Positions 855 to 57,100 of a stretch of DNA of 64,000 nucleotides are shown here, piece after piece. This DNA is from Patescibacteria group bacterium UBA4787 (GTDB lineage Bacteria; Patescibacteriota; Patescibacteriia; UBA2591; UBA4787), in contig DHGX01000001.1 in assembly GCA_002402995.1 (NCBI GenBank), forward strand, positions 151,073 to 215,072, written 5' to 3'. The notes below the pieces were generated by a model. The model made no database searches, was not told where the DNA came from, and saw nothing but the letters and a program-made list of their open reading frames with translations. A program made the translations under genes and the position numbers. How positions within the stretch are numbered: the stretch's first letter is position 1; each line of letters begins with the position of its first letter.

Positions 855-931
855 TGGTGGGCCTGGATGGACTCGAACCATCGACCCCGGCTTTATAAGA
901 GCCGTGCTCTAACCAACTGAGCTACAGGCCC
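855..931 (-). tRNA. tRNA-Ile with anticodon UAU, CCA encoded
   Basis: A manual cloverleaf on the minus strand fits well. Acceptor GGGCCTG/CAGGCCC. D-stem GCTC/GAGC. Anticodon stem CGGCT/AGCCG with loop CTTATAA (anticodon TAT). T-stem GATGG/CCATC with loop TTCGAGT. Discriminator A followed by CCA. Confidence 0.85.
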
Positions 932-22190: not shown

Positions 22191-22213
22191 TTTTGCAAAT
22201 TGATTAATTTTTT

Positions 22214-39789: not shown

Positions 39790-40629
39790 ATGAATAAATT
39801 TGCGATTATCGGCACGGGCTTTATAATGCCCCGTCACGCGGAAGCGATTGATTTTATTAAGGGAAAAATTTTAGAAATCATTAATACTTCCGAAGGAGTG
39901 AATAATTGGAAAAAAATAATAAAAAACACGAAAGCAGATTATATTATTATTTTAACCCCAAACGACCTTCATTCTCCTATAAGTCTGGCGGCGCTTAAGC
40001 GCGGCAAGACGGTCTTATGCGAAAAGCCCCTCTGTCTTAACACCAAAGACGTTAAAATATTGGCTGAGTATAAAAATATTTTTACGGTTGTTCAGTTGAG
40101 GCATCATCTTTTAACGAAGAAATTAAAAAAAGAAATCAATTCTAGGAAATTTTATCAAATAGAAATGGATATCGCGGTACACCGAGATCCAAAATATTAT
40201 AAGTGTTGGAAGGGCCAAGAGAAGAGGTCGGGTGGAATTTTATTTAACCTTGGAATACATTATTTTGATATTTTAATCCATCTTTTCGGTGAACCGGAAG
40301 AGATATTAAATTCGAAATATAATAAAAAAGAAGCCTCAGGTATTTTAAAGGGCAAGAATTATGTTTGTCGTTGGCGTTTAACTACCGACGAACCTCATAA
40401 GACCCAACGTAGAGTTTTTAAGATCAATGGAGTCGGTTATAATTTTTCTTCGCAAGATAATTTATCGCACGAGAACCTGCATCGTTTTATTTATCAGGAT
40501 TTAATTCATAAAAAAGGAACAACTCCGCAAGAAGCCTTGAAGTCAATTGGCTTGATCGAAAATATTTATTATCAAGCCAACAAGAAAAAATATTCTAAAA
40601 ACAAAGATAGGGTTAAACGAACAAAATAA
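39790..40629 (+). CDS. Gfo/Idh/MocA-family sugar oxidoreductase
   Basis: FAIIGTGFIMPRHAEAI, the Rossmann fold and LCEKPL are family motifs. It is coupled to the aminotransferase by a TAATG overlap. Confidence 0.65.
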   Translation: MNKFAIIGTGFIMPRHAEAIDFIKGKILEIINTSEGVNNWKKIIKNTKADYIIILTPNDLHSPISLAALKRGKTVLCEKPLCLNTKDVKILAEYKNIFTVVQLRHHLLTKKLKKEINSRKFYQIEMDIAVHRDPKYYKCWKGQEKRSGGILFNLGIHYFDILIHLFGEPEEILNSKYNKKEASGILKGKNYVCRWRLTTDEPHKTQRRVFKINGVGYNFSSQDNLSHENLHRFIYQDLIHKKGTTPQEALKSIGLIENIYYQANKKKYSKNKDRVKRTK

Positions 40630-41816
40630 TGGAATTTTTAGATTTGAATAGACAGTATAGAATAATTAAGAAAGAGGTTAATCAAGCTATTCAGAAGGTT
40701 TTAGATAGCGGTCATTTTATTTTAGGCCCGGAAGTAGAAGAGTTAGAAGGGCAAATTGCTAAATATTGCGGTGTTAAATATGGGGTTGGTGTTAATTCCG
40801 GAACAGACGCCTTGTTATTATCCTTGATGGCTTTAGGTATAGGCAAGGGAGACGAGGTAATTACTACGCCATTTACTTTTATGGCTACGGCAGAAACCAT
40901 AGTTATGTGCGGCGCTCGGCCTATTTTTGTGGACATTGATTCAGCAACTTTTAATATTGATGTTGATAAAATTGAAGAAGTAATCACTAAAAAGACAAAA
41001 GCAATTATTCCTGTTCATCTCTATGGCCAACCAGCCGAAATGGACAAAATGATAAGAATCGCACGAAAATACAAATTGAGAATAATTGAAGATTGTGCTC
41101 AGGCTATCGGCGCTAAATATAAAAATAAAAAAGTCGGTTCAATGGGTGATCTGGGCTGTTTTTCCTTTTTCCCTTCTAAAAATTTAGGTGCTTGTGGTGA
41201 TGGCGGGATGGTGGCGACAAACAATAAAAAATTAGCCGAAAAAATCAGAATGTTGCGCGCCCATGGTTCAAGAAAAAAATATTATCACGAAATTATTGGT
41301 ACTAATAGTCGACTGAGCACCATTCAGGCAGCTATTCTATTGGTCAAATTAAAATATTTAGACGAATGGACTAAGGTTCGACAAAAAATAGCCAGGCATT
41401 ATAGTCGCTCGTTTGGTAAATTTATTAATCTAAGGGCTCCTTTTGTTGCGTCTAATCGCACCCATGTTTTTCATCAATACACCATAAGAGTAAATAAACA
41501 AAAAAGGGACAAGCTGATAGATTATTTAAAACAACAGGACATTCCGACTGCGATTTATTATCTCTTGCCGCTCCACTTACAACCATCTATGAAATTTTTG
41601 GGTTACAAAAAAGGCGATTTTCCCGTAGCCGAAAAGGCGGCCCGAGAAGTTTTGTCTTTACCGATCTATCCAGAATTAAATATTAATAAAGAACAAAATA
41701 GGATTATCAATACCATTAATAAGTTTATTATCAAGCAAGCGAGAGAAATGAAAAACAAAGTTTTTCATTTCCGAGCGGGCGCAGACAACACAGGGTTAAC
41801 ACCATTTATTAATTAG
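40629..41816 (+). CDS. DegT/DnrJ/EryC1/StrS-family PLP-dependent sugar aminotransferase
   Basis: GDEVITTPFTFMATAETIVMCGARPIFVDID and SFFPSKNLGACGDGG are present, the latter in the PLP-Lys region. The last 25 codons are contributed by repeat copy C. Confidence 0.8.
   Translation: MEFLDLNRQYRIIKKEVNQAIQKVLDSGHFILGPEVEELEGQIAKYCGVKYGVGVNSGTDALLLSLMALGIGKGDEVITTPFTFMATAETIVMCGARPIFVDIDSATFNIDVDKIEEVITKKTKAIIPVHLYGQPAEMDKMIRIARKYKLRIIEDCAQAIGAKYKNKKVGSMGDLGCFSFFPSKNLGACGDGGMVATNNKKLAEKIRMLRAHGSRKKYYHEIIGTNSRLSTIQAAILLVKLKYLDEWTKVRQKIARHYSRSFGKFINLRAPFVASNRTHVFHQYTIRVNKQKRDKLIDYLKQQDIPTAIYYLLPLHLQPSMKFLGYKKGDFPVAEKAAREVLSLPIYPELNINKEQNRIINTINKFIIKQAREMKNKVFHFRAGADNTGLTPFIN
41728..41803 (+). repeat. 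dispersed ~75-bp GC-box/palindrome repeat, copy C (the most diverged)
   Basis: tatcaagcaagcgagagaaatgaaaaacaaagtttttcatttccgagcgggcgcagacaacacagggttaacacc. It overlaps the 3' end of the aminotransferase CDS. Confidence 0.6.
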
Positions 41817-41836
41817 GATTTCATAAACTCATTTTT

Positions 41837-42577
41837 ATGTTTTCTGACCAAGCAAAAATTGATTATCGGTCTTATTATCAAAATAATCAGGTGAGTGTAG
41901 ACGACACAACCAGAGTTGGTCTGATGAAGCATATTTTAAGAATAATAAATTTTAAAAAATTAAAAAATAAGAATATTCTAGAGGTCGGTTTCGGTTCAGG
42001 ATTATTACTAAAAATGTTATCAAGAAGCTGTAATGAAATTACAGGGATTGATATCTCTAAAAAAAATATTGACGAACTGACGACGGTCTTAGTTAAGGAA
42101 AATTTGAGCCCCAAGTTGGTTCAAGGAGATATTTTAAACTTGCCTTTACTTGACGATATTTTCGACATTATTATTTGCGCCGAAGTATTAGAACATGTAA
42201 CAAATGTTAATAAAGCTATTCAAGAGTTAAAAAGAGTCACTAGGCCGGGTGGCATTATGGTTATATCTGTACCCAATGAAGAAATAATCAAATATGAATT
42301 TTGTGTTCATTGTCGCAACTTAACACCTCGGAATGGCCATCTAAATTCATTTAATAGAGAGGAATTTTCTAGTTTGTTGAACAGTTTGGGATTAAAAATC
42401 GAAAAAACAAAAATAATTTCTTCAAAGATTTATGCACTTTCATTCCTAAAGATTTTTTATTTTACGCCATTTTCTGTTATTATTGATATAATAGATCGAC
42501 TAATCTCCCGATATTTTCATATTTTCCCCCCATTATTAATTATTAAGATTCGCAAACCAGATTTTATCCAAGATTAA
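41837..42577 (+). CDS. class I SAM-dependent methyltransferase
   Basis: Motif I ILEVGFGSGLL is present, and ICAEVLEHV is the post-I/II region. Confidence 0.6.
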   Translation: MFSDQAKIDYRSYYQNNQVSVDDTTRVGLMKHILRIINFKKLKNKNILEVGFGSGLLLKMLSRSCNEITGIDISKKNIDELTTVLVKENLSPKLVQGDILNLPLLDDIFDIIICAEVLEHVTNVNKAIQELKRVTRPGGIMVISVPNEEIIKYEFCVHCRNLTPRNGHLNSFNREEFSSLLNSLGLKIEKTKIISSKIYALSFLKIFYFTPFSVIIDIIDRLISRYFHIFPPLLIIKIRKPDFIQD

Positions 42578-42584
42578 ATTTTTC

Positions 42585-43685
42585 GTGCTTATGAAAAATA
42601 AAAAAATAAAAATAATTATTATCGTTGGCGCCCGGCCTAATTTTATTAAAATTGCCCCTCTTTTTAAATATTTTAAAAAATATTCTAAAAGGGTCATGCC
42701 GATTATAGTTCATACTGGCCAACACTATGATAATTTAATGTCGCGCGTTTTTTTCAAGGAGCTAAATATACCAAAACCAAAGTATGATTTGGGGGTTGGT
42801 TCTGGCCTCCATGGACAGCAGACGGGAAAAATATTAATAAAACTTGAAGGAGTATATTTAAAAGAAAATCCAGATTTGGTCGTAGTAGTCGGCGACGTGA
42901 ACTCAACTTTGGCTGGTGCTCTGGCGGCTGTTAAGATTCATATCCCCGTCGCTCACATTGAAGCAGGCGTTAGAAGTTATGATAAATCAATGCCTGAAGA
43001 AATTAATCGCATTGTTACTGATCGGGTGGCTGACATTTTATTGTGTCCAACACAAAACGCGGTCAGAAATTTAAAAAAAGAGGCTATTACAAAAGGTGTT
43101 TTTAATGTCGGCGATCTAAATTACGATTCATTTTTGAATAAACTACGGACGGCTCATCAAAAATCAAAAATTCTGAATGAATTAAGATTAGCGCCAAAGA
43201 AATATTATCTGCTGACCATTCATCGACCAGCCAACGTGGACAATCTGGATAATTTCAAAAATATTATCAAGACTATCGTTGATAGCCGAACGAACGTAGT
43301 GTTTCCCGTCCACCCGAGGACGAAGAAACAGCTGGAAAAGCTTAAGATTAAAGAATTTAAAAATTTAAAATTGATCGACCCAGTTGGTTATTTAGATATG
43401 TTAATTTTAGAAGAGAGCGCCTTAAAAATTATTACGGATTCCGGTGGAGTTCAAAAAGAAGCATATTTTTTAAAAACTCCATGCATTACTCTGAGGGATT
43501 GCACAGAGTGGACGGAAACAATGATCGGCGGATGGAATATTTTAGTCTGCCGCAACAATATACCCAAATTGCAGAAAATAATAAAAAGTCCTTGCCGTCC
43601 TAAAAAATATCAACGTTTTTTTGGAGACGGCCGAGCCGCAGAAAAAATTGTGAAGATTTTATCCAATTCGCGGAGATTTAGTTAA
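42585..43685 (+). CDS. wecB: UDP-N-acetylglucosamine 2-epimerase (non-hydrolysing)
   Basis: IIVGARPNFIKIAPL...HTGQHYD and ...HIEAGVRS are WecB/MnaA hallmarks. Confidence 0.8.
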   Translation: MLMKNKKIKIIIIVGARPNFIKIAPLFKYFKKYSKRVMPIIVHTGQHYDNLMSRVFFKELNIPKPKYDLGVGSGLHGQQTGKILIKLEGVYLKENPDLVVVVGDVNSTLAGALAAVKIHIPVAHIEAGVRSYDKSMPEEINRIVTDRVADILLCPTQNAVRNLKKEAITKGVFNVGDLNYDSFLNKLRTAHQKSKILNELRLAPKKYYLLTIHRPANVDNLDNFKNIIKTIVDSRTNVVFPVHPRTKKQLEKLKIKEFKNLKLIDPVGYLDMLILEESALKIITDSGGVQKEAYFLKTPCITLRDCTEWTETMIGGWNILVCRNNIPKLQKIIKSPCRPKKYQRFFGDGRAAEKIVKILSNSRRFS

Positions 43686-43717
43686 CAATACAAATCACGC
43701 CAACCCTAATTTTTAAA

Positions 43718-45049
43718 ATGACAAAAATTAAAATAAAAAAAGATACACTGCTGATTTTTTTGTCAATTATTTTTTATAAAATAATTCTTGACATATCTTA
43801 TTATTTTGTGGTTTCTCGGGCTTGGGACTATGCTGGATACGGCATTCAGGCCCTTTGGGACTACGTGGGTTATAATTTTATATTTAACAATGTAAAAATT
43901 TTTGAATCATATTTTCTCCTTTTAATTGTTTTGATATTTGTTCCTAAATCATCAAAAAAGCTTTCTAATATTATAACTTGGTTATTAGTATTGTTCGCCT
44001 ATATCCCCATGCTTACAATCTATGCCATGAAAGACGGCGCTAGATTATATATTTTGGCCATAACCTGTTTTTGGCTTATAGTTTTCCTTTTATTAAAATT
44101 TTTGCCGAACATCCACTTGCCATTCTTAAAAAAAACTCAAGCCAAGACAATTCATTATGCTATTTTTATTATTTTTAGTGGAATGGCGATCATCTCAATT
44201 TTAAAATATTTTGGTCTTGTTTTTAATTTAAACCTTAAGACGATATACGAAACCAGGACATTATTCTATGCCAATCTTCGTGGTCCTGCTATAGAATATT
44301 TGTTTAATTGGCTGGCCCTCGTTGTTAATCCTGTTTTTTTATTTATCTTTTTCAAAAAGAAAAAATGGCTTTTGTCTGTTTTGTCGCTAGCTATTCAGAT
44401 TCTTATTTTTTCTGCTACCGGCAATAAAATTTATCTTTTTGCTATACCTTATATAGTGTTTGTCGCTTTGTTGGTTAACCGTAGGCGTCCATTTGTTTGT
44501 GCTTCTTTAGTTCTTTCAATTGTTGTAGGGGTGGGGATATTGTCTTATTTTTTATTGGGAGATGTTTGGTTAACTGCTCTTTTTACTCACAGGACTTTAT
44601 TTACCCCAGCTCTGCTTTCTTTTCATTATTATGATTTTTTTTCACAAAACAATTTTATCTATTTATCATCGCAAAGAATTTTTAGAAATTTTATTAATTA
44701 TCCATACGATCTTGACCCGCCACATCTCATTAGCACGACGTATTTTAATCGTCCGCAAATGAGCTCTAATAACGGCATATTCGCCGATGCTTATATGAAT
44801 TTCGGTTTTTGGGGCTTAATTATTTGGGCTATTCTTTTGGCGATATTCTTGAAAGCAATAGATTCTTTTTCTAGGAATAAAGATAAACAGATTTGTTTAG
44901 TTGCTATAGGAATTTCCGTTATGCTTTTTACGAACATGCCGTTCTTAACATCGCTGATAACGGGGGGATTATTGTTGGGTTTGATCATCTTATATTTATT
45001 GCCACCATTAAATAACCAATCAACCAATATCCGACAACCGTATAATTGA
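43718..45049 (+). CDS. polytopic membrane protein, possible Wzy-like oligosaccharide polymerase/ligase
   Basis: It has about 10-12 TM helices and sits in a glycan locus. There is no sequence-level proof. Confidence 0.3.
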   Translation: MTKIKIKKDTLLIFLSIIFYKIILDISYYFVVSRAWDYAGYGIQALWDYVGYNFIFNNVKIFESYFLLLIVLIFVPKSSKKLSNIITWLLVLFAYIPMLTIYAMKDGARLYILAITCFWLIVFLLLKFLPNIHLPFLKKTQAKTIHYAIFIIFSGMAIISILKYFGLVFNLNLKTIYETRTLFYANLRGPAIEYLFNWLALVVNPVFLFIFFKKKKWLLSVLSLAIQILIFSATGNKIYLFAIPYIVFVALLVNRRRPFVCASLVLSIVVGVGILSYFLLGDVWLTALFTHRTLFTPALLSFHYYDFFSQNNFIYLSSQRIFRNFINYPYDLDPPHLISTTYFNRPQMSSNNGIFADAYMNFGFWGLIIWAILLAIFLKAIDSFSRNKDKQICLVAIGISVMLFTNMPFLTSLITGGLLLGLIILYLLPPLNNQSTNIRQPYN

Positions 45050-45058
45050 TAAAATGAA

Positions 45059-46393
45059 ATGTTACATAAAATAATTTTTAAAACAGTTTATTTATTGAAT
45101 AGGCCAGGACTAATTGGCTATTTCAATAAATTTCAAAAAACACAGTGGCTGGATTTACAGCAATTGCAAGCCGAACAAAATCGACAGCTACGCAAATTGG
45201 TTAATTTTGCTTATCAATCCGTTCCTTATTATACTAAATTATTTAGCCAACTTAATATTCGGCCAAGCGATATAGACGCAATTAAGGATTTGGAGAAACT
45301 TCCGATTTTGACTAAAAAAATTATTAGAGAGCATTGGGAAGACCTGACACCCATTAATATCAAGGAAATGAATTATCTTAACAGTACAACAGGTGGCTCG
45401 ACTGGCGTGCCTTGTAGATATAGAATGTCGCACGAAGATTATAAAAAGGGGGTAGCCTTGATGTATCGCGGTTGGACTTATGCTGGTTATAACTTGGGTG
45501 ATAAGGTGGCAACCATCGCTGGATCATCACTTATCCCTACAATCGGTTCTAGTTTAAAAAATAAAATTCAGGAATTCGGTCTGAATATTAGAAATTATTC
45601 TTCGTATGAAATGAGCGATAAAAATCTTTTTAAATATTTTTGTGAAATTAATAAGTGGCGCCCGGATTTTATCCGAGGATACGCCTCCTCGGTTTATTTA
45701 TTCGCTCGATTTTTAAAATCTCATAACTTAAAATTGACAGTCCGGCCAAGAGCAGTTTTTACTACTGCCGAAAAGTTGTTTGCTGCGCAGCGCGCGCTGA
45801 CAGAAGAAGTCTTTGACACAAAAGTTTTTGATACTTATGGCTTAAATGACGGAGGAGTCTCGGCTTTTGAGTGCGAAAAACATAATGGCATGCATATTGA
45901 TGCGGAAAGGGCTATTCTAGAAACTGTGGACGAGAAAAATAAATCAATTACCGGGCAAACAGGGAAAATATTGGCCACTGATTTATATAATTACGCAATG
46001 CCATTTATACGTTACGATACAGAAGATTTGGGTATTATTTCTGACACGCCATGTTCTTGCGGACGAAAGACTTTTTTGTTAAAAGAAATAACCGGCCGGA
46101 TAACCGATTATTTAAATTTAAATAATATTATTATCGGCAGTCCGGTATTGACCGTGTTGATGGGTAAATTCGACATTGAACAATATCAAATTATTCAAAA
46201 TACCCCTTCTTCAATTGTTTGTAAAATAATAAAAGGCAAAGGTTATAACGAGGCAAGAGACGAAGATCTTATCCGCAAATCTTTTTATGTTCACGTTGGA
46301 GAGATTGGCATTAAGTTTGTTTATGCTGAATTTATCCCGGTCGAAGGGATTAGAAAATATAAATTTATTATTAATAATGTAAATACTATTTAA
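45059..46393 (+). CDS. CapK/PaaK-like adenylate-forming enzyme
   Basis: The AMP-binding-like motif LNSTTGGSTGVP is present. The size and locus context are typical of CapK-family proteins. Confidence 0.5.
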   Translation: MLHKIIFKTVYLLNRPGLIGYFNKFQKTQWLDLQQLQAEQNRQLRKLVNFAYQSVPYYTKLFSQLNIRPSDIDAIKDLEKLPILTKKIIREHWEDLTPINIKEMNYLNSTTGGSTGVPCRYRMSHEDYKKGVALMYRGWTYAGYNLGDKVATIAGSSLIPTIGSSLKNKIQEFGLNIRNYSSYEMSDKNLFKYFCEINKWRPDFIRGYASSVYLFARFLKSHNLKLTVRPRAVFTTAEKLFAAQRALTEEVFDTKVFDTYGLNDGGVSAFECEKHNGMHIDAERAILETVDEKNKSITGQTGKILATDLYNYAMPFIRYDTEDLGIISDTPCSCGRKTFLLKEITGRITDYLNLNNIIIGSPVLTVLMGKFDIEQYQIIQNTPSSIVCKIIKGKGYNEARDEDLIRKSFYVHVGEIGIKFVYAEFIPVEGIRKYKFIINNVNTI

Positions 46394-46408: not shown

Positions 46409-48436
46409 ATGTGCGGGATTTTCGGTGTTATCACAAATAAAAATTCAAGTATTTCTTCCGATAATTGCGAAAAGATCATCGGTAGGTTATTTGAATTATC
46501 GGAATCTCGTGGGAAAGAAGCTTCCGGGATCGCAGCTTTCTTAGACAATGAAATCAGGATTTATAAAGAACCGCTTTCCGCTTCGGTGCTAATGCAAACC
46601 AAAAATTATAAAAATTTATTTAATAAAAATAGAATAGATTCTCTTAGTAATAAAGATAAAAGCTTTATTGCTATCGGTCATACACGCCTGGTAACCAACG
46701 GAGTATTGGGTGTTAATGACAATAATCAACCGATTGTTAAAGACGGTTTAGTGGGCGTGCACAACGGTATTATCGTTAACGACGTGGATCTTTGGAAAAA
46801 GTTTCCCTCACTGAAAAGGCGTTATGAAGTTGACACAGAAGTCATTTTAACGCTTATTAGAAAATTCTTAAATGAAGGAATGTCTTTAATTGGGGCGGTA
46901 CAAGAAGCATTTGATTTGATCGACGGCTCTGCTTCAGTGGCTGTTTTATTCAATGATCGCCCAATCATTCTTTTGGCTACTAATACTGGATCTTTGTATG
47001 TTTATCGCAATTCAATAAAAAATATTATCATTTTTGCTTCCGAAAAATATATTTTAAAAAAGCTAATCAGTAAATTCGAAAATTTTTTAAGCGACGGGGA
47101 TCTTTTCCAGGTACATGCCGGAGAGGGCTACTTAATTGATAAAACAGATCTGAAGACAGCCAAATTTTTATTGGCTGGCGATATTTCCGAGAAAGAGAGA
47201 ATAGAAGAAGGTAATATTTTAATAAACCCCAATAACATTATTGATCTGTCATCTTATGAACTTTCTGTCCCAGATGTTCCGGAAATTCAAAATAATTTAA
47301 ATATTATTAAAACATATTCTAATCTTTTTCCTCGCTACGAACAGGCCATTAATGGATTAAGACGCTGCACAAAATGTATTCTTCCGGAGACTTTTCCTTT
47401 TATTAGCTTTGATGAAAAAGGGGTTTGTAATTACTGCCATTCTTACAAAAAGAATGAGCTAAAAGGAGAAGATACATTTCATCAGATAGCTAAACATTAT
47501 AGAAGAAAAAACGACGAACCGGATTGTTTGGTGCCATTTAGCGGCGGACGCGATAGTAGTTACGGACTGCATTATATTAAGAAGGTTTTGAAAATGAATC
47601 CCGTGTCTTATTCTTATGACTGGGGAATGATTACGGACGTTGGAAGAAGGAATCAGGCGAGAATGTGCGCTGAGCTGGGGATTGAGCATATTTTGGTTTC
47701 TGCCGATATCCGCCGAAAAAGAGAAAATATTAGGAAAAATGTAATCGCCTGGCTTAAGCGCCCAGCCTTGGGTATGATTCCTTTATTTATGGCCGGCGAT
47801 AAGCAATATTTCTATTATGCCAATCAGATTAAAAAACAAATGGGTCTTGAGCTTATAATTATGTGCGAAAACGCGCTTGAAAGGACTAATTTTAAGCATG
47901 GGTTTTGCGGCGTCAGACATGCTCGTTCAGACGTTTCCCAATACTTTATGTCATTGTCTGATAAATTAAAATTGGCCGAATATTATGCCGGACAATTTTT
48001 TAAAAATCCCGCATATTTAAATTCTACGACAGTAGATGCTATTTTTGGCTTCATTTCATATTTTTTCATATCGCACAATTATTTATATCCATATCAATTT
48101 ATAAAATGGGACGAAAAAGAAATAATATCTACCCTTGTTGATAATTATGGATGGGAATTCGCGCCGGATAAAAAAATTAGTTGGCGCAACGATGATGGCA
48201 CGGCCCCTTTTTATAATTATATTTATTACAAGGTGGCTGGATTTACGGAAAATGACACCTTTCGCAGTAATCAGATAAGAGAAGAGATGATCTCTCGAGA
48301 AGAGGCATTGGTATTGGCGCGAGACGAAAATCAGCCGCGCCTTGAAGCGATTAAATGGTATTGCGATACGATTGGACTTAATTTCGAGGAAGTTTTAAAG
48401 ATAATAAATTCTATTCCTAATCTTTATAGGTTCTAA
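46409..48436 (+). CDS. fusion of a class-II (Ntn) glutamine amidotransferase domain to a Zn-ribbon/PP-loop N-acetyl-sugar amidotransferase domain
   Basis: The N-terminus MCGIFGV has the Cys2 nucleophile of GATase-2/AsnB-like enzymes. The C-terminal half has CTKCILPETFP...CNYCHSYKK followed by the PP-loop FSGGRDSSY. Its tail (WRNDDGTAPFYNYI...GFTENDTFRSNQIR...KWYCDTIGL) is paralogous to 54217..55305. Confidence 0.6.
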   Translation: MCGIFGVITNKNSSISSDNCEKIIGRLFELSESRGKEASGIAAFLDNEIRIYKEPLSASVLMQTKNYKNLFNKNRIDSLSNKDKSFIAIGHTRLVTNGVLGVNDNNQPIVKDGLVGVHNGIIVNDVDLWKKFPSLKRRYEVDTEVILTLIRKFLNEGMSLIGAVQEAFDLIDGSASVAVLFNDRPIILLATNTGSLYVYRNSIKNIIIFASEKYILKKLISKFENFLSDGDLFQVHAGEGYLIDKTDLKTAKFLLAGDISEKERIEEGNILINPNNIIDLSSYELSVPDVPEIQNNLNIIKTYSNLFPRYEQAINGLRRCTKCILPETFPFISFDEKGVCNYCHSYKKNELKGEDTFHQIAKHYRRKNDEPDCLVPFSGGRDSSYGLHYIKKVLKMNPVSYSYDWGMITDVGRRNQARMCAELGIEHILVSADIRRKRENIRKNVIAWLKRPALGMIPLFMAGDKQYFYYANQIKKQMGLELIIMCENALERTNFKHGFCGVRHARSDVSQYFMSLSDKLKLAEYYAGQFFKNPAYLNSTTVDAIFGFISYFFISHNYLYPYQFIKWDEKEIISTLVDNYGWEFAPDKKISWRNDDGTAPFYNYIYYKVAGFTENDTFRSNQIREEMISREEALVLARDENQPRLEAIKWYCDTIGLNFEEVLKIINSIPNLYRF

Positions 48437-48448
48437 ACAGTTATTTAT

Positions 48449-48991
48449 ATGCAAAAACAAGAAGAAAAAAAATTAGATTCCATTGGTCGTTTACTTGAAA
48501 AAAATAGAATTAAAAATGTTTTGCCTTTTATTAAAGGAAGATTATTGGATATTGGGTGTGGAATGAATAATTTAGTAAGAATTTACGGCAATGGCGTGGG
48601 AGTCGATGTCTTTGATTGGGGGAGAGCTGATTTGGTGGTTTCTGATACGTCTAAGCTTCCTTTTAAAGATAACGAATTTGATACAATAACATTACTTGCC
48701 GCTATTAATCATATTCCCAATCGAATAGAGGTTCTGAAAGAATGTCGTCGTGTTCTAAAAAACGACGGCTTATTGGTTATAACGACGATCCCACCTTTTG
48801 TTTCAAGGTTCTGGCATTTTTTACGATCGCCATGGGATCTAGATCAAAAAGAAAGAGGGATGGCAGAAGGAGAAGTTTATGGATTTAACAAAAAAGATTT
48901 AATCAATTTGGTGCAAAACGAAGGATTCAGGCTGGTCGGTTATAAGAGGTTTACGATTGTTAACTCAATATCTATCTTTAAGAAATTTTAA
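48449..48991 (+). CDS. class I SAM-dependent methyltransferase
   Basis: Motif I LLDIGCGMNNL is present, and a Methyltransf_11-like fold follows. Confidence 0.55.
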   Translation: MQKQEEKKLDSIGRLLEKNRIKNVLPFIKGRLLDIGCGMNNLVRIYGNGVGVDVFDWGRADLVVSDTSKLPFKDNEFDTITLLAAINHIPNRIEVLKECRRVLKNDGLLVITTIPPFVSRFWHFLRSPWDLDQKERGMAEGEVYGFNKKDLINLVQNEGFRLVGYKRFTIVNSISIFKKF

Positions 48992-49183: not shown

Positions 49184-50131
49184 ATGTTCAAAGATAATAA
49201 AATCTCAGTCGTTATACCCGCTTATAATGTAGAAAAATTAATCGGCAGAGTTATTTTAACTATGCCGAATTTTATAGACAAGATGGTGGTGGTTGATGAT
49301 AACAGCACTGATAAAACTAATGAAGTGGTTCAAGGTCTTCAAGGAAACAACAAAAAAATTATTTTAATTAAACACGACAAAAATCAGGGTGTCGGTGGTG
49401 CTATTGCCACGGGTTATAAATGGTCGCGGGATAATGATTTCGATGTCGCCATAGTTATGGCTGGTGATGCTCAAATGGATCCAGATGACCTCCCGCGATT
49501 ATTAGAACCGGTCGTCGGTGGGGAGGTGGAGTACAGCAAAGGCAATCGTCTATCTACAGGAGAAGCTTTTAAAAAAATACCCAGAATTAAATACTTTGGC
49601 AATTCTATCCTTTCGTTTTTGACCAAAATCGCTTCGGGTTATTGGCACGTTACTGATTCCCAGAGTGGTTATACTGCTATTAACAAAAAGGCGTTGAAGA
49701 CCATCGATTGGGCGGAAATGTATAAGCGATATGGTCAACCCAACGACCTACTGGTCAGATTAAATGTTTATAATTTTAAAGTCAGAGATGTGGCTATTAA
49801 CCCGATTTATAATATTGGAGAAAAGTCGGGTATCAAGTTGCGAAGAGAAATTTTTACCATTAGCTGGCTTTTGCTCAAATTATTTATTTGGCGTCTTAGG
49901 GAAAAATATATTATTCGTGATTTTCATCCTTTAGTATTTTTCTACTTTTTGAGCGGTTTATTATCATGCGCGACCGTATTTTTCGTAGTAAGATTGGCTT
50001 GCTTGTGGATTAAAAACGGATATGTTCCGCCGACTACCGCTCTTGTTCTGGTTTTTTGTGCTGTGATGGCCATGCAATCCGGATTTTTTGCTATGTGGTT
50101 TGACATGGAATCAAATAAAAATTTGAAATGA
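49184..50131 (+). CDS. GT2 polyprenol-phosphate glycosyltransferase with C-terminal TM helices (ArnC/GtrB-like)
   Basis: ISVVIPAYNVEK...VVVDDNSTDKT and ...MAGDAQMDP (DxD) are present. Two C-terminal TM helices follow. Confidence 0.7.
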   Translation: MFKDNKISVVIPAYNVEKLIGRVILTMPNFIDKMVVVDDNSTDKTNEVVQGLQGNNKKIILIKHDKNQGVGGAIATGYKWSRDNDFDVAIVMAGDAQMDPDDLPRLLEPVVGGEVEYSKGNRLSTGEAFKKIPRIKYFGNSILSFLTKIASGYWHVTDSQSGYTAINKKALKTIDWAEMYKRYGQPNDLLVRLNVYNFKVRDVAINPIYNIGEKSGIKLRREIFTISWLLLKLFIWRLREKYIIRDFHPLVFFYFLSGLLSCATVFFVVRLACLWIKNGYVPPTTALVLVFCAVMAMQSGFFAMWFDMESNKNLK

Positions 50132-54216: not shown

Positions 54217-55305
54217 ATGAAAATTTGTAGTAAATGTATCTTGCCAGAGTCTTTTCCCATGATTAGGTTTGATAAGAATGGAGTTTGTAATTATTGCCTC
54301 GATTATAAAAAAATTATTGTTAAGGGGGGGGACGAATTAGAAAAGATTTTAAATAAATTTCGAAATCAAGGCTGTGATTTTGACTGTGTTGTTGGATCTG
54401 GCGGAGGCAGAGATAGCGCATATGTGATACACCAATTAGTAAAAAAATATAAAATGCGAGTTTTGATGTTCACTTATGATTGGGGATTAATGACACCAGA
54501 AGCACATAGAAATCTGGAGCGAATTTCTAAAATTTTAAATATAAAACACGTTATCATCAGACCTAACGCCGAAAAGATAAAAAAACACATATCTATTAAT
54601 ATAAAAGTGTGGCTTAGGAGGCCGCAGCTTGGTATGATACCCGTTTTTACAATGGCTGATAAAGCGATGGGGGTTCAGATGAATAAAGTTGCTAGAAAAT
54701 ACGGAATTAAATTAATAGTGAGCGGAACTAATCGTTATGAAACAACGCATTTCAAAACCGCCTTTTGTGGTATCAACGAAACAAGGCTTGGCGGAATGAC
54801 TTCGGCTCAACTCGCGAATATAGATAAAATAAAATTATTATTTTTTTATTTTTCTCAATACATTAAAAATCCAAGATATATTAACTCTTCGCTTGTCGAG
54901 ATGATAAAATCGTTTTTTTATCACTATTTCGCCAACCATTCAAAGGATATAATTAAAATATTCTTTTATGATTATATCATGTGGGACGAAAACACGGTTT
55001 TATCTATCATAAGAAAAGATTTAAATTGGGAAGCTCCCAAAGATACAACCATGACATGGCGAACCGACGATGGTACGGCAGCTTTTTATAATTATATTTG
55101 TTATATGGTGGCTGGTTTTACTGAAAACGACACATTCAGAGGCAACCAAATTCGCCAAGGAATTCTTACCAGAGAAGAGGTTTTTATATTATTAAAAGAA
55201 GAAAATAAGCCTAGATTTGAATCCATAAAATGGTATTGTGATACTATTGGTATTGATTTTGAAAGCACAATAAAAACAATAAATGAAATATCAAAATTTT
55301 ACTAA
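54217..55305 (+). CDS. PP-loop N-acetyl-sugar amidotransferase (stand-alone paralog of the C-terminal half of 46409..48436)
   Basis: The zinc ribbon CSKCILPESFP...CNYCLDYKK is present. The PP-loop is GSGGGRDSAY. The C-terminus WRTDDGTAAFYNYI...GFTENDTFRGNQIR...KWYCDTIGI is shared with the fusion protein. Confidence 0.55.
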   Translation: MKICSKCILPESFPMIRFDKNGVCNYCLDYKKIIVKGGDELEKILNKFRNQGCDFDCVVGSGGGRDSAYVIHQLVKKYKMRVLMFTYDWGLMTPEAHRNLERISKILNIKHVIIRPNAEKIKKHISINIKVWLRRPQLGMIPVFTMADKAMGVQMNKVARKYGIKLIVSGTNRYETTHFKTAFCGINETRLGGMTSAQLANIDKIKLLFFYFSQYIKNPRYINSSLVEMIKSFFYHYFANHSKDIIKIFFYDYIMWDENTVLSIIRKDLNWEAPKDTTMTWRTDDGTAAFYNYICYMVAGFTENDTFRGNQIRQGILTREEVFILLKEENKPRFESIKWYCDTIGIDFESTIKTINEISKFY

Positions 55306-55360: not shown

Positions 55361-55990
55361 ATGGATAAATTTAATCTAAAAAATTTAAATACCAATAGGC
55401 GCTGGGATTATCATACACAAGAATACCACAGTGGCAATCCAATAACCCAATTCCTTTTTAATTTTTTTTATAAAAAACTAGAAGAAGCCCTAATGGTGCT
55501 TAAGAGTGGCGACAAAATACTTGAAGTGGGTTGTGGAGCAGGAGAGTCTTCTTTGAGAATAAAGCGTATGCTTAAGGATCAATATTTTGAGGTATCAGAT
55601 ATAGACGAGTACTATATTAACAAATTAAAAGATAAAAATTTTTCTTTACCGGTATCTCAAGAGTCTGTTTATGATTTAAAAAGGGGCGATAACGAATTCG
55701 ACTGCATTTTATTTTTAGAAGTTTTGGAGCATCTCAAAAATCCAGAGTGCGCACTCCAAGAATTATTTAGAGTCTCCAGAAAATATGTTATTCTCTCTGT
55801 TCCCAACGAACCACTTTGGCGATTTTTAAATTTATTAAGAGGAAAATTTATCACTTCCCTGGGTAACACGCCCGCTCACGTTAATCACTGGTCGGTAAGC
55901 GAAATAAGCGATCTTGTTTCTCGGCACGGTAAGATTATTAAATTATATAAACCCATTCCGTGGATTATTATTATTGCAGAAAAGGAATAA
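55361..55990 (+). CDS. class I SAM-dependent methyltransferase
   Basis: Motif I ILEVGCGAGESS is present, and ILFLEVLEHL follows. Confidence 0.55.
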   Translation: MDKFNLKNLNTNRRWDYHTQEYHSGNPITQFLFNFFYKKLEEALMVLKSGDKILEVGCGAGESSLRIKRMLKDQYFEVSDIDEYYINKLKDKNFSLPVSQESVYDLKRGDNEFDCILFLEVLEHLKNPECALQELFRVSRKYVILSVPNEPLWRFLNLLRGKFITSLGNTPAHVNHWSVSEISDLVSRHGKIIKLYKPIPWIIIIAEKE

Positions 55991-56113: not shown

Positions 56114-57100
56114 ATGTTTAAAAATAATAAAATTTCAGTAGTGATACCAGCCTACAACGAAGAAAAGTCAATTGCTTCGGTTATTTTAACCGTGCCGAGC
56201 TTCGTTGATCATGTCCTTGTAGTAAATGATGGGTCAACCGACCAAACAACTGAAATCGCCAAAGAGAGGGGGGCTATATTAATAAATCATGTAATCAACA
56301 AGGGGGTGGGAGCGGCCTTTCGTAGTGGCGTTAGAAAATCTTTGGAATTAAATTCAGATATCATGGTGAATATGGATGCCGACGGGCAATTTAATTCAGA
56401 GGACATTACTAAGCTTATTGAACCGATAATCGAAAAACGGGCTGATTTTGTCACTGCTTCAAGATTCAAGAATCCCGATTTTTATCCGCAAATGTCAAGA
56501 ATCAAATTTATAGGCAATAGGTTGATGTCCTGGTTAATTAGTAATTTGGTTGGTCAAAAATATTATGACGTTTCCTGCGGATTTAGGGCTTATTCAAAAG
56601 AGGCGCTATTGAGACTTAATTTATTCGGTGAATTTACTTATACCCAAGAAACATTTTTAGATTTGGCTTTTAAAGGGATGTCTATTGTTGAGGTCCCGGT
56701 TTTGGTCAGAGGAACAAGAGAATATGGCCAATCTAAAGTAGCTTCTAATTTATTTAATTATACATATCAGACCTTAAAAATTATATTGAGAACCCTAAGG
56801 GATTATAGAATTTTTAAAGTTTTTTCTTTTATCTCGTCATTTTTTCTTTTGATTGGTGTAGTTTTTGGATCATTTTCTCTTATTTATTATTTACGTTTCA
56901 ACTTTTTTTCTCCGTATAAATGGGTTGCCTTTGCCGCTGGTTTTTCCATCTTATTCTCGCTTTTAACCATAATGGCCGGCTTTATAATTGATATATTTTC
57001 CCGAATTAGATATAACCAAGAGGAGACTCTCTATCAAATTAAAAAAATAATTTTTTTAAAAAATAATCAAAGAGTAGATACCCCCGATTATAAATTATAA
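56114..57100 (+). CDS. GT2 polyprenol-phosphate glycosyltransferase with C-terminal TM helices (paralog of 49184..50131)
   Basis: ISVVIPAYNEEKSI...VVNDGSTDQT and ...NMDADGQ are present. Two C-terminal TM helices follow. Confidence 0.7.
   Translation: MFKNNKISVVIPAYNEEKSIASVILTVPSFVDHVLVVNDGSTDQTTEIAKERGAILINHVINKGVGAAFRSGVRKSLELNSDIMVNMDADGQFNSEDITKLIEPIIEKRADFVTASRFKNPDFYPQMSRIKFIGNRLMSWLISNLVGQKYYDVSCGFRAYSKEALLRLNLFGEFTYTQETFLDLAFKGMSIVEVPVLVRGTREYGQSKVASNLFNYTYQTLKIILRTLRDYRIFKVFSFISSFFLLIGVVFGSFSLIYYLRFNFFSPYKWVAFAAGFSILFSLLTIMAGFIIDIFSRIRYNQEETLYQIKKIIFLKNNQRVDTPDYKL

What the first reader, a model, noticed from the sequence alone, without database searches (positions are those of the whole stretch)
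46409..48436. Fusion of a glutamine amidotransferase domain to a PP-loop sugar amidotransferase, with a stand-alone paralog at 54217..55305
The C-terminal half (Cys4 ribbon plus SGGRDS PP-loop plus the WRxDDGTAxFYNYI/GFTENDTFR/KWYCDTIG tail) is paralogous to ORF 54217..55305. It resembles the N-acetyl-sugar amidotransferases that install acetamidino groups on nonulosonic or hexosaminuronic sugars. Those enzymes normally obtain ammonia from separate HisH/HisF-like partners, and no such genes are in the window. Here the N-terminus is a class-II Ntn glutaminase with MCGIFGV Cys2, in an AsnB-like arrangement. That would make the enzyme self-sufficient, and it is a domain combination I do not recognise as standard. 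The paralog lacking a glutaminase may use free ammonia or borrow the fused glutaminase.
Basis: partly seen in the sequence, partly recalled or inferred. Interest (0 to 1): 0.6.

Follow-up and report, generated by a model that had tools for sequence, protein, structure and literature searches.

The report
Sugar amidotransferase with built-in glutaminase
This gene joins a glutamine-splitting domain to an enzyme related to those that put acetamidino groups on cell-surface sugars, so a single protein appears to replace the usual three-protein system; the fusion is real, widespread in bacteria and archaea, unstudied, and mislabelled in databases.

Summary
ORF 46409..48436 (675 aa) has an N-terminal class-II (Ntn) glutaminase beginning Met-Cys2. 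Its C-terminal half is a Cys4 zinc ribbon plus SGGRDS PP-loop domain that aligns end to end with the N-acetyl sugar amidotransferase (NASAT) model TIGR03573. That half is 43% identical to the free ORF 54217..55305.

It is not AsnB, GlmS, QueC or a frameshift. The 150 best 50%-identity cluster representatives are all fused. At least 80 species representatives from over 15 phyla carry the full-length protein, and the catalytic residues of both domains are invariant or nearly so.

Both window proteins score below the curated TIGR03573 cut-off (134 and 158 bits against 203), so they belong to a sister subfamily. Canonical NASATs take ammonia from HisH/HisF2. Only 3 of 82 loci with the fusion hold hisH-hisF2, and there those genes adjoin a separate canonical NASAT.

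The commonest neighbour is a GtrB/ArnC-type GT2, and the window holds two such modules.

Best reading: a self-sufficient, glutamine- and ATP-dependent amidotransferase acting on an N-acyl amino sugar. The chemistry and substrate are inferred. This is a new variant of a known kind, of moderate interest.

The parts
46409..48436 (+). Whole fused gene, 675 aa: Ntn glutaminase + linker + NASAT-like PP-loop domain
46409..47170 (+). Class-II (Ntn) glutamine amidotransferase domain, aa 1-254. Catalytic Cys2, Arg93, Asn119-Gly120 and Asp142.
   Evidence: GATase_7 and GATase_6 above gathering score. Best solved match is the GlmS glutaminase domain 1xff, with residue-by-residue alignment. The residues are invariant or at least 90% conserved in 72 homologues. 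Foldseek top hits are GFAT and GlmS.
47171..47356 (+). Interdomain linker, aa 255-316. It includes a low-confidence stretch at about aa 280-296 and a long helix at 297-315 leading into the zinc ribbon.
   Evidence: AF2 model secondary structure and pLDDT profile
47357..48436 (+). NASAT-like PP-loop ATP-pyrophosphatase domain, aa 317-675
   Evidence: TIGR03573 positions 3-343 of 344, 134.1 bits, below the 203.2 cut-off. 8wex LpNASAT E 1.4e-12 by sequence and TM 0.58 by fold.
47366..47437 (+). Tetracysteine zinc-ribbon motif: C320, C323, C340, C343
   Evidence: Invariant in 72 homologues. Matches the NASAT motif CXXCXn[GN]XCXXC, shown to bind Zn in 8wex (PMC10607449).
47540..47557 (+). PP-loop S378-G-G-R-D-S383
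   Evidence: Invariant in 72 homologues
48449..48991 (+). Small SAM-dependent methyltransferase (180 aa), module 1
   Evidence: Pfam Methyltransf_11/23. Orthologues at 57% and 49% identity lie directly upstream of the fusion in L005 and L006. This MT type lies within 3 genes of the fusion in 11 of 82 loci.
49184..50131 (+). GT2 glycosyltransferase (315 aa) with two C-terminal TM helices; polyprenyl-phosphate sugar synthase type, module 1
   Evidence: Best NCBIfam hits are AglJ, PpgS, Dol-P-hexose transferase and ArnC, all below cut-off. TM helices at 251-269 and 279-297. Orthologues at 39-43% identity lie beside the fusion in L003, L004 and L008. This GT2 type lies within 3 genes in 44 of 82 loci.
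54217..55305 (+). Free NASAT-like paralogue (362 aa) with no glutaminase domain. Its PP-loop deviates: G-S-G-G-G-R-D-S.
   Evidence: It groups with the free-standing proteins P0122 and P0123 at 100% bootstrap, outside the clade that holds all fused proteins.
55361..55990 (+). SAM-dependent methyltransferase (209 aa), module 2
56114..57100 (+). Second GT2 (328 aa) of polyprenyl-phosphate sugar synthase type, module 2. It is 30.5% identical to the first GT2.
   Evidence: AglJ model positions 2-289 of 293, 121.9 bits; also PpgS and ArnC hits. C-terminal TM helices at 233-251 and 277-295. Self-BLAST.
57102..59399 (+). 765-aa polytopic membrane protein: about 11-12 TM helices followed by a soluble domain of about 345 aa. 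A GT-C-like candidate transferase that starts 2 bases after the GT2 stop.
   Evidence: Hydropathy scan. No Pfam or NCBIfam hit. The assignment rests on topology only.
39790..46393 (+). Upstream sugar-precursor and assembly genes of the same co-directional cluster: GFO/IDH/MocA oxidoreductase, DegT aminotransferase, MT, WecB 2-epimerase, Wzy-like polymerase, CapK/PaaK-like adenylate-forming enzyme.

Best explanation
The gene most likely encodes a single-chain, glutamine-dependent and ATP-dependent amidotransferase that works in cell-surface glycan synthesis.

Proposed mechanism. The N-terminal Ntn domain uses Cys2, exposed after Met removal, to hydrolyse glutamine. The ammonia passes within the protein to the C-terminal domain. 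That domain is a NASAT-like PP-loop ATP pyrophosphatase with a Cys4 zinc ribbon. It activates a carbonyl oxygen of an N-acyl amino sugar with ATP, giving an adenylylated intermediate that is resolved to AMP and PPi. Ammonia then displaces the activated oxygen. The most likely outcome is conversion of an acetamido group to an acetamidino (acetimidoyl) group.

The cis-fused class-II glutaminase takes the place of the trans-acting HisH (class-I glutaminase) and HisF2/AglZ/WbuZ pair that serves canonical NASATs such as WbpG, WbuX and AglY.

The enzyme has no TM segments, so it is cytoplasmic. Its conserved partner is a GtrB/ArnC-type GT2. The sugar is therefore probably handled as, or destined to become, a polyprenyl-phosphate-linked monosaccharide.

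What is shown: the domain identities, conservation of both catalytic sets, the wide distribution, the absence of HisH/HisF2, the non-redundant co-occurrence with canonical trios and with AsnB-type enzymes, and the conserved GT2 neighbour.

What is inferred: ammonia channelling, adenylylation, amidine formation, the identity of the sugar, and whether the substrate is nucleotide-linked or lipid-linked.

The free paralogue at 54217..55305 most likely does the same chemistry on a second substrate using free ammonia.
For: Domain calls.

Conservation: 72 fused homologues keep Cys2, Arg93, Asn119-Gly120, Asp142, the four Cys and SGGRDS invariant or at least 90% conserved.

Model: AF2 gives pLDDT 90.2 and pTM 0.91 for the whole two-domain chain. 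I read the high pTM as a fixed domain arrangement, which is an inference. By fold the N-domain resembles GFAT/GlmS and the C-domain resembles LpNASAT 8wex.

Family size and spread: 573 representatives at E<=1e-30, and the best 150 are all fused. All 80 best genome loci are full-length, from over 15 phyla, archaea and cultured strains.

Canonical ammonia supply by HisH/HisF2: PMC11445079 and PMC11340318.

Natural control: in L016, L035 and L063 a contiguous hisH-hisF2-NASAT trio sits beside the fusion. The trio NASATs score 262-325 bits on TIGR03573 (cut-off 203.2) and the HisF-likes score 376-386 bits on NF038364 (cut-off 310). No hisH or hisF was found in the other 79 loci.

Glycan context: every locus whose gene content was inspected is a glycan cluster, and the recurrent neighbours across 82 loci are glycan-assembly genes.

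Pathway context: in L091 the NASAT-like gene is embedded in a WbpA/B/E/D/I-type set. That is the pathway whose 3-N-acetyl group is the known WbpG/MMP1081 target (PMC10607449; PMC2952790).
Against: The C-domain scores below the curated TIGR03573 cut-off in all four fused proteins tested (134-143 bits against 203.2). It is only 20-24% identical to canonical NASATs, so the reaction or substrate may differ.

No NASAT has been reconstituted in vitro. The one structural paper reports no activity, so even the canonical chemistry rests on genetics.

Close free-standing relatives lack any glutaminase, so the glutaminase is dispensable in some lineages.

The window cluster lacks a recognisable UDP-GlcNAc 6-dehydrogenase and a WbpD-type acetyltransferase, so the sugar cannot be named.
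Confidence: 0.6

Rival explanations
1. The architecture and ammonia-delivery logic are the same, but the chemistry differs. The PP-loop domain amidates another carbonyl, for example turning a uronic acid carboxylate into a uronamide, or acting on a formamido or other N-acyl group, rather than making an acetamidino group.
For: The TIGR03573 score is below the cut-off and identity to canonical NASATs is only 20-24%. The fusion co-occurs with a complete canonical acetamidino trio in three loci, so it is not redundant with that trio. UDP-sugar dehydrogenases, which make uronic acids, lie nearby in L004 and L091.
Against: Homology to NASAT runs along the full model length, including the C-terminal substrate-side region. 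To my knowledge, uronamide formation is done by AsnB-type enzymes. Such genes co-occur with the fusion in L007 and on pDCAR1, so that role is already filled there.
Confidence: 0.2
2. The glutaminase domain is vestigial or regulatory, and the enzyme uses free ammonia as its free-standing relatives presumably do.
For: Free-standing members nested among fused ones have no glutaminase or HisH/HisF nearby. This shows the synthetase domain can be kept without a glutaminase.
Against: The catalytic residues are conserved at 42-57% overall sequence identity across phyla and domains of life: Asn119, Gly120 and Asp142 are invariant, and Cys2 and Arg93 are at least 90% conserved. In my C-domain survey, 121 of 142 proteins classed as fused start with MCG. 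The other 21 do not begin MCG; five of them lack the HNG motif and begin within the GATase domain. This is the pattern expected under selection for catalysis.
Confidence: 0.08
3. It is an ordinary enzyme under one of its database names: asparagine synthetase B, GlmS (glucosamine-6-P synthase), or QueC.
For: Public records use these names. The N-domain does resemble the glutaminase domains of GlmS and AsnB.
Against: AsnB and GlmS models match only aa 1-250 and score far below their cut-offs: TIGR01536 53 bits against 267, TIGR01135 66 bits against 418. There is no Asn_synthase, SIS or QueC hit on the window protein. AsnB structures superpose only at TM 0.26-0.28 (query-normalised) with rmsd above 20 A. 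Genuine asnB genes sit beside it on pDCAR1.
Confidence: 0.02
4. The fusion is an artefact of sequencing or assembly that joins two genes.
For: None found.
Against: The identical protein is on record on 6 contigs, and the two places shown come from different runs. Over 120 full-length homologues were found, plus 150 fused 50%-identity representatives and 80 genome loci including complete genomes and RefSeq isolates.
Confidence: 0.01

Closest known systems
Canonical N-acetyl sugar amidotransferases (NASAT, TIGR03573): WbpG (P. aeruginosa O5), WbuX (E. coli O145), LfnA, PseA, M. maripaludis MMP1081, LpNASAT (PDB 8wex)
   Same: The C-domain is homologous end to end. It has the same CXXC...CXXC zinc ribbon, SGGxDS PP-loop and C-terminal helical region, and it sits in surface-glycan clusters.
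   Different: It scores below the curated family cut-off and is 20-24% identical to canonical members. It carries a cis-fused class-II glutaminase in place of separate HisH and HisF2/AglZ/WbuZ partners. Its conserved neighbour is a GtrB/ArnC-type GT2.
Asparagine synthetase B and AsnB-like sugar amidotransferases
   Same: The same two-part design: an N-terminal Ntn (Cys1) glutaminase feeding ammonia to a C-terminal PP-loop adenylating domain of the adenine nucleotide alpha-hydrolase superfamily.
   Different: The C-domain belongs to a different PP-loop family: no PF00733 hit, it has a Cys4 zinc ribbon, and AsnB superposes poorly. The N-domain scores higher on GlmS models than on AsnB models. 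AsnB-type genes co-occur with it as separate genes.
GlmS / GFAT glutaminase domain
   Same: It is the best sequence and fold match for aa 1-250, with identical catalytic residues.
   Different: There are no SIS isomerase domains. The acceptor domain is unrelated.
Three-component lipid-phosphate-sugar decoration systems (GtrA/B/V, ArnC/T, PpgS/Rv3779, AglJ-type)
   Same: The conserved GT2 partner has the size, best family hits and two C-terminal TM helices of polyprenyl-phosphate glycosyltransferases. Polytopic GT-C-like or PMT_2 proteins and flippase-like proteins recur nearby.
   Different: To my knowledge, none of those known systems includes a NASAT-like amidotransferase. Here the link rests on gene neighbourhood only.

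Membership tests
NASAT (TIGR03573, WbuX/WbpG family) | Tetracysteine motif CXXCXn[GN]XCXXC, which binds Zn in 8wex | tested here: met
   C320, C323, G338, C340 and C343 are invariant in 72 homologues. The paralogue has C4, C7, C24 and C27. Motif definition from PMC10607449.
NASAT (TIGR03573, WbuX/WbpG family) | PP-loop SGGXDS | tested here: met
   The fusion has S378-GGRDS-383, invariant across homologues. The free paralogue deviates (GSGGGRDS), as do P0122 and P0123.
NASAT (TIGR03573, WbuX/WbpG family) | Whole-protein score at or above the curated cut-off of 203.2 bits | tested here: not met
   The fusion scores 134.1 bits and the paralogue 158.5 bits. Fused homologues from three other phyla score 134.5-143.4 bits, while canonical NASATs in the same loci score 262-325 bits.
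NASAT (TIGR03573, WbuX/WbpG family) | Full-length homology and the same fold as the solved member 8wex | tested here: met
   Model positions 3-343 of 344 are matched. 8wex gives E 1.4e-12 over aa 332-642. Foldseek TM 0.58-0.59 normalised to 8wex.
NASAT (TIGR03573, WbuX/WbpG family) | Dedicated HisH and HisF2/AglZ/WbuZ ammonia-delivery partners encoded alongside | tested here: not met
   None in the window. None in 79 of 82 loci with the fusion. In the other 3 loci the pair adjoins a separate canonical NASAT.
NASAT (TIGR03573, WbuX/WbpG family) | Converts a sugar N-acetyl group to an acetamidino group | not testable with these tools
   This needs enzyme assays or glycan analysis.
Class-II (Ntn) glutamine amidotransferase domain | Cys as the first residue after the initiator Met | tested here: met
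   ATG TGC at 46409-46414, with no upstream alternative start. C2 is at least 90% conserved. 121 of 142 fused proteins start MCG.
Class-II (Ntn) glutamine amidotransferase domain | Glutamine-binding and oxyanion residues, equivalent to GlmS Arg73, Asn98, Gly99 and Asp123 | tested here: met
   R93, N119, G120 and D142 align to those positions of 1xff. N119, G120 and D142 are invariant and R93 is at least 90% conserved. The roles of the GlmS residues are from my own knowledge.
Class-II (Ntn) glutamine amidotransferase domain | Pfam GATase_6 or GATase_7 above gathering score | tested here: met
   49.3 bits (cut-off 25) and 47.1 bits (cut-off 27).
Asparagine synthetase B (TIGR01536 / PF00733) | C-terminal Asn_synthase domain and a score above the curated cut-off | tested here: not met
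   No PF00733 hit at E<=0.01. TIGR01536 scores 53.3 bits against 267.1 and matches aa 2-237 only. For 1ct9 the query-normalised TM is 0.26-0.28 with rmsd about 22 A.
GlmS (TIGR01135) | Two C-terminal SIS domains and a score above the cut-off | tested here: not met
   65.7 bits against 418, matching only model positions 1-230 of 607.
QueC (the RefSeq name on pDCAR1) | A match to QueC models | tested here: not met
   No QueC family appears among the Pfam or NCBIfam hits of the window protein.

The most novel reading that the evidence does not exclude
The fused clade does not act on nucleotide sugars. It is the amidine-forming step of a so far undescribed lipid-phosphate-sugar decoration route. 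A GtrB/ArnC-type GT2 first makes polyprenyl-phosphate-HexNAc. The cytoplasmic fusion enzyme converts its N-acetyl group to an acetimidoyl group using glutamine. The adjacent small methyltransferase N-methylates it. After flipping across the membrane, a GT-C-type enzyme (the 765-aa ORF in module 2) transfers the cationic sugar onto a surface polymer. The window would then hold two such modules in parallel, one glutamine-dependent and one ammonia-dependent.
Probability: 0.2. Interest if true: 0.65.

Novelty: new variant of a known kind. Interest (0 to 1): 0.45.

Why it matters
Acetamidino sugars give bacterial and archaeal surfaces a positive charge. They shape O-antigen serotype, flagellin and archaellin glycans, and phage and antibody recognition. 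Yet the enzymes that make them have never been reconstituted, partly because the canonical system needs three proteins and its substrate is unknown.

A one-protein, glutamine-dependent relative offers a simpler system for establishing the chemistry and the substrate. It occurs in cultured strains such as S. carbinolicus DSM 3852, Legionella londiniensis ATCC 49505 and Ramlibacter humi.

It is also a clear case of non-homologous replacement of an ammonia-delivery module: a class-I HisH plus HisF barrel acting in trans is replaced by a class-II Ntn domain acting in cis.

There is an annotation problem too. This large family is currently named AsnB, GlmS, QueC or hypothetical. That misleads metabolic reconstructions, especially for small-genome Patescibacteria, where a false GlmS or AsnB call matters.

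Tried and rejected
Tools or data that were unavailable:
- Model coordinates are not exposed to scripts, so I could not measure the Cys2 to PP-loop distance or look for a tunnel.
- The primary papers on LfnA/WbuX (PMC2258674) and on the M. maripaludis acetamidino genes (PMC3347211) are not held. Only their titles and secondary accounts were used.

Searches that found nothing:
- Literature searches for the fusion found nothing.
- Exact-sequence look-ups of the RefSeq Legionella, Ramlibacter and Rhizobiales proteins found nothing.
- The phage collection holds only glutaminase-domain matches.
- The window has no rRNA to name the organism. Assignment to Patescibacteria rests only on best hits and low G+C.

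Method limits:
- The first bootstrapped tree timed out. The numpy version ran, but its backbone is weakly supported. The scenario of one gain and several losses is only suggested.
They were validated afterwards by NCBIfam on the hits they found.

Ideas considered and rejected:
- A tRNA or nucleotide-modifying PP-loop enzyme (TtuA, TilS, QueC type). The match to NASAT runs the full length, and every locus inspected is a glycan cluster.
- A recent tandem duplication giving rise to the two window modules. The two NASAT-like genes are only 43% identical, the GT2s are 30.5% identical, and the two MTs do not match each other.
Full report
1. THE OBSERVATION

ORF 46409..48436 on the + strand is an uninterrupted 675-aa frame. 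Its ATG is the first start codon after the stop of the preceding gene (TAA at 46391-46393), and the next codon is TGC. The protein therefore has to begin Met-Cys-Gly-Ile-Phe-Gly.

Pfam places GATase_7 and GATase_6 on aa 84-216, both above their gathering scores. NCBIfam places TIGR03573 (WbuX, N-acetyl sugar amidotransferase) on aa 319-666. That covers model positions 3-343 of 344 at E 7.8e-39, but the score of 134.1 bits is below the curated cut-off of 203.2.

ORF 54217..55305 (362 aa) matches the same model over positions 1-336 of 344 with 158.5 bits, also below the cut-off. It aligns with aa 317-673 of the fusion at 43% identity, E 3e-115, over its whole length.

The identical 675-aa protein is on record on six contigs, and the two places shown come from two different sequencing runs.

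2. WHAT IT IS NOT

- It is not AsnB. The C-terminal half has no PF00733 hit, and TIGR01536 matches aa 2-237 only, at 53 bits against a cut-off of 267.
- It is not GlmS. GlmS models also match only the first 250 residues.
- It is not QueC. No QueC model matches the window protein.
- AsnB structures superpose on the predicted structure only at query-normalised TM 0.26-0.28 with rmsd about 22 A. The only solved NASAT, 8wex from Legionella, matches the C-domain at TM 0.58 and at E 1.4e-12 by sequence.
- It is not a frameshift artefact. The large protein database returns over 120 full-length homologues of 650-700 aa at 50-59% identity.
- An exhaustive HMMER scan of 1.84 billion cluster representatives gives 573 hits at E<=1e-30. 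The best 150 are all two-domain proteins, still at about E 1e-128 at rank 150.
- A scan of one genome per GTDB species returns at least 587 relatives, and the best 80 are all full-length fusions.

Those 80 come from Patescibacteria, Chloroflexota, Planctomycetota, Pseudomonadota (including Gammaproteobacteria), Thermodesulfobacteriota, Bacteroidota, Acidobacteriota, Verrucomicrobiota, Nitrospinota, Omnitrophota, Bacillota and KSB1. They also include the archaea Methanoregula and Bathyarchaeota, and the cultured strains Legionella londiniensis ATCC 49505 and Ramlibacter humi. Methanoperedens and ANME archaea also carry the fusion.

3. ARE BOTH HALVES FUNCTIONAL?

In an alignment of 72 fused homologues at 42-57% identity to the window protein, both catalytic sets are conserved.

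- Glutaminase: Asn119, Gly120 and Asp142 are invariant. Cys2 and Arg93 are at least 90% conserved. The HMMER alignment to the E. coli GlmS glutaminase domain (1xff) puts Arg93, Asn119-Gly120 and Asp142 on GlmS Arg73, Asn98-Gly99 and Asp123. Those are the glutamine-binding and oxyanion residues of Ntn amidotransferases, which I state from my own knowledge.
- Synthetase: the four cysteines (C320, C323, C340, C343), the PP-loop S378-GGRDS-383, and about 40 further C-domain positions are invariant.

AlphaFold2 run on this alignment gives pLDDT 90.2 and pTM 0.91 for the whole chain. For a two-domain protein I read this as a fixed domain arrangement rather than beads on a string.

4. THE AMMONIA-SUPPLY ARGUMENT AND A NATURAL CONTROL

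- HisF2 and HisH2 were proposed to deliver ammonia to WbpG, and the HisF2-WbpG interaction was confirmed by pull-down (PMC11445079).
- A Sphingomonas polysaccharide cluster lists a WbuX-family NASAT, an AlgZ/HisF2-family protein and a HisH subunit side by side (PMC11340318).
- The only structural paper on the family does not discuss the ammonia source and reports no activity (PMC10607449).

No window ORF that I scanned matches HisH, HisF or WbuZ. These scans covered essentially every non-nested ORF of 100 aa or more, except four of 119-152 aa, which are shorter than the HisH/HisF homologues seen here (201-254 aa).

Across 82 loci with a full-length fusion, HisH/HisF probes hit only three: L016 (Anaerolineales), L035 (Bacillota) and L063 (Bacteroidetes). 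In each of these, hisH and hisF are contiguous with a separate free NASAT of 376-384 aa.

NCBIfam confirms that these are the canonical parts:
- the free NASATs score 262-325 bits on TIGR03573, above the cut-off;
- the HisF-likes score 376-386 bits on NF038364 (AglZ/HisF2 family acetamidino modification protein), above its cut-off of 310;
- the HisH-likes score 226-230 bits on TIGR01855.

By contrast, the C-domains of fused proteins from four phyla all score 134-143 bits.

So in the same gene clusters, the canonical enzyme keeps its trans-acting class-I glutaminase system and the fused enzyme has none. This is the strongest evidence available here that the fused Ntn domain is the ammonia source. 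It also shows that the two enzyme types are not redundant.

5. RELATIONSHIP OF THE TWO WINDOW COPIES

The free paralogue is not a recent copy of the fused gene.

- Its closest relatives are free proteins: P0122 and P0123 at 67-68% identity, then a clade at 50-53%.
- In a tree rooted on canonical NASATs, it sits in a free-standing lineage outside a clade that holds all 23 fused sequences sampled. Support is 100% for its own triplet and 68% for the fused-containing clade, and the backbone is weak.
- Free members are nested among fused ones. Three were checked on long contigs (P0140, P0163, P0211). The upstream gene lies within about 100 bp or overlaps, and there is no GATase, HisH or HisF gene within 8 kb. 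The same holds for P0160 and P0152.

The glutaminase has therefore been lost, or possibly gained, more than once, and some members must work without a linked glutaminase. A second NASAT-like gene lies near the fusion in only 3 of 82 loci, and in all three it is the canonical trio member. The window's pairing of a fused and a free member is therefore unusual, and nothing suggests a general borrowing arrangement.

The paralogue's PP-loop reads G-S-G-G-G-R-D-S instead of F-S-G-G-R-D-S. Its two closest relatives share this deviation. All the other invariant C-domain residues that I compared by eye are kept, except that Arg413 is His.

6. CONTEXT AND LIKELY PATHWAY

The window is a bacterial chromosome carrying gyrA, recA, murE, queA, ruvC, PBP1a, rpoB, rpoC and ftsK. 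It has low G+C. The best matches to the fusion are from Patescibacteria.

From 38.8 to 63 kb runs a glycan cluster, co-directional from 39.8 kb. In order, it encodes:
- Wzz;
- a GFO/IDH/MocA oxidoreductase;
- a DegT aminotransferase;
- a genuine WecB 2-epimerase;
- a Wzy-like polymerase;
- a CapK/PaaK-like adenylate-forming enzyme;
- the fusion;
- a small MT;
- a GT2;
- a deacetylase-like ORF;
- a FemAB/GNAT-like protein;
- an MT;
- a pyruvyl transferase;
- the paralogue;
- an MT;
- a second GT2;
- a 765-aa protein with about 11-12 TM helices;
- a GT4;
- a VimE-like deacetylase;
- two more MTs.

Both NASAT-like genes are followed by the same two kinds of gene, an MT and then a GT2. Both GT2s best match polyprenyl-phosphate sugar synthases (AglJ, PpgS, Dol-P-hexose transferase, ArnC) and carry two C-terminal TM helices.

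This link is conserved.
- A GT2 of about 317 aa lies within three genes of the fusion in 44 of 82 loci, mostly directly upstream and on the same strand.
- 40 loci have one within 2.5 kb, and 35 of those GT2s have two or more C-terminal TM helices.
- Full-length orthologues at 39-43% identity flank the gene in Vecturithrix, Methanoperedenaceae and Ignavibacteriaceae.
- In cultured S. carbinolicus the GT2 again lies directly upstream.

Other recurrent neighbours are Wzx flippases (24 loci), hexapeptide acyltransferases (12), epimerases or dehydratases (12), GT4s (12), small MTs (11 and 8), LPG_synthase_TM proteins (6), PMT_2 GT-C enzymes (6) and DUF354 (5).

In the Chloroflexota locus L091 the NASAT-like gene sits inside a complete WbpA/B/E/D/I-type set, with DUF354 and CapK as well. 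That pathway builds 2,3-diacetamido-mannuronic acid. Its 3-N-acetyl group is converted to acetamidino by WbpG in Pseudomonas and by the WbpG homologue MMP1081 in M. maripaludis, whose glycan also carries an amide-linked threonine (PMC10607449; PMC2952790; PMC11407970).

The window has parts of that set but no recognisable 6-dehydrogenase or WbpD-type acetyltransferase. I do not name the sugar.

7. MECHANISM, WITH SHOWN AND INFERRED STEPS SEPARATED

Shown: the two domain identities, conservation of both active-site sets, a soluble protein with no TM segment, the absence of HisH/HisF2, the glycan context, and the GT2 partner.

Inferred from the chemistry of Ntn amidotransferases and PP-loop enzymes (AsnB, NAD synthetase, GMP synthetase; my own knowledge):
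- Cys2 hydrolyses glutamine.
- Ammonia travels within the protein to the PP-loop site.
- There, ATP adenylylates the carbonyl oxygen of a sugar N-acyl group.
- Ammonia displaces AMP, giving the amidine.

Whether the substrate is a nucleotide sugar or the polyprenyl-phosphate sugar made by the neighbouring GT2 cannot be decided here. The adjacent small methyltransferase is conserved at 49-57% identity next to the fusion in two other phyla. It could N-methylate the amidine, as in the N-methylacetimidoyl sugars I recall from Legionella and Campylobacter. That is speculation.

8. COMPARISON WITH WHAT IS KNOWN, AND NOVELTY

The design is like AsnB (Ntn glutaminase plus PP-loop synthetase), but the synthetase belongs to the NASAT lineage. 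The protein fails the NASAT membership test on two counts: the curated score and the HisH/HisF2 partnership. It passes on motifs, full-length homology and fold.

I therefore file it as a sister subfamily that very probably works like a NASAT with a built-in glutaminase, and not as a member of TIGR03573.

I found no paper that describes the fusion. Public names for family members are:
- hypothetical protein;
- putative LPS biosynthesis protein;
- asparagine synthetase B;
- glucosamine-6-phosphate synthetase, or glutamine--fructose-6-phosphate aminotransferase;
- 7-cyano-7-deazaguanine synthase, in RefSeq.

The canonical free enzyme on an Azospirillum plasmid is correctly named N-acetyl sugar amidotransferase.

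9. VERDICT

It is a new variant of a known kind: a large, widespread, unnamed family in which a class-II glutaminase fused in cis replaces the HisH/HisF2 pair of canonical acetamidino-forming enzymes.

A specialist would find it plausible rather than startling. Its value is that it offers a one-protein system for a reaction that has never been reconstituted, and that it exposes a systematic mis-annotation. Interest 0.45.

Noticed in passing
window 855-931 (-): A tRNA-Ile gene with anticodon TAT (UAU) sits next to a tRNA-Ala(TGC) at 1398-1471. tRNA-Ile(UAU) is uncommon in bacteria, which usually read AUA with a lysidine-modified CAU tRNA.
   Followed up: no
window 20237-23881 (-): A second, separate candidate lipid-phosphate-sugar system. 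It has a 241-aa GT2 with AglJ/ArnC/PpgS-type hits and no TM helices, flanked by two polytopic membrane ORFs of 432 aa (9 TM-like segments) and 555 aa (10 TM-like segments). Neither membrane ORF has an NCBIfam hit.
   Followed up: partly
window 54385-54408 (paralogue aa 57-64): The free paralogue's PP-loop reads G-S-G-G-G-R-D-S instead of the canonical x-S-G-G-x-D-S. This is either a Ser-to-Gly change at the first motif position or a one-residue insertion. The deviation is shared by its two closest relatives (P0122 has SGAGRDS, P0123 has SGGGRDS), so it is inherited and not a sequencing error.
   Followed up: partly
window 57102-59399 (+): A 765-aa ORF with about 11-12 N-terminal TM helices and a soluble C-terminal part of about 345 aa. 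It has no Pfam or NCBIfam hit and starts 2 bases after the stop of the second GT2. The topology is GT-C-like. A 766-aa unannotated protein lies near the fusion in the Methanoperedenaceae locus L004, but tblastn found no match between the two at E<=1e-8.
   Followed up: partly
window 50128-50916 (+); L004 7098-9953: A 262-aa ORF with only weak polysaccharide-deacetylase hits. Its N-terminal 125 aa match the 154-aa ORF directly upstream of the fusion in L004. They also match two further partial copies there, interleaved with toxin-antitoxin genes (BrnT, CopG, PIN). This looks like a gene broken up by insertions.
   Followed up: no
window 45059-46393 (+): A CapK/PaaK/F390-synthetase-like adenylate-forming enzyme lies directly upstream of the fusion. 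A CapK_C protein also lies near the NASAT-like gene in L091. It is a candidate for attaching an amino acid to a uronic acid carboxylate, as in the threonine-amidated ManNAc3NAmA of Methanococcus.
   Followed up: no
window 41837-63018 (+): The cluster has an unusually high density of SAM-dependent methyltransferases: six genes at 41837, 48449, 51944, 55361, 61595 and 62443. It also has a pyruvyl transferase (52752) and a FemAB/GNAT-like protein (50928). This suggests a heavily decorated glycan.
   Followed up: no
L016 11183-13996; L035 3421-5972; L063 9053-11722: Three loci from three phyla carry a canonical hisH-hisF2-NASAT trio in the same cluster as the fused gene. This implies two distinct amidotransfer steps in one glycan pathway.
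   Followed up: yes
L093 (S. carbinolicus DSM 3852 plasmid pDCAR1, NZ_CP026539.1 15728-17692): RefSeq names the fused homologue WP_129355994.1 '7-cyano-7-deazaguanine synthase'. It sits between a GT2 and two asnB-type amidotransferase genes, next to an IS21 element. This is a cultured, sequenced strain suitable for experiments.
   Followed up: partly
window 60624-61526 (+): A 300-aa ORF with a weak, partial match (61 bits against a cut-off of 440) to VimE, the UDP-2,3-diacetamido-2,3-dideoxy-glucuronate deacetylase. It hints at di-N-acetylated uronic acid chemistry in this cluster.
   Followed up: no
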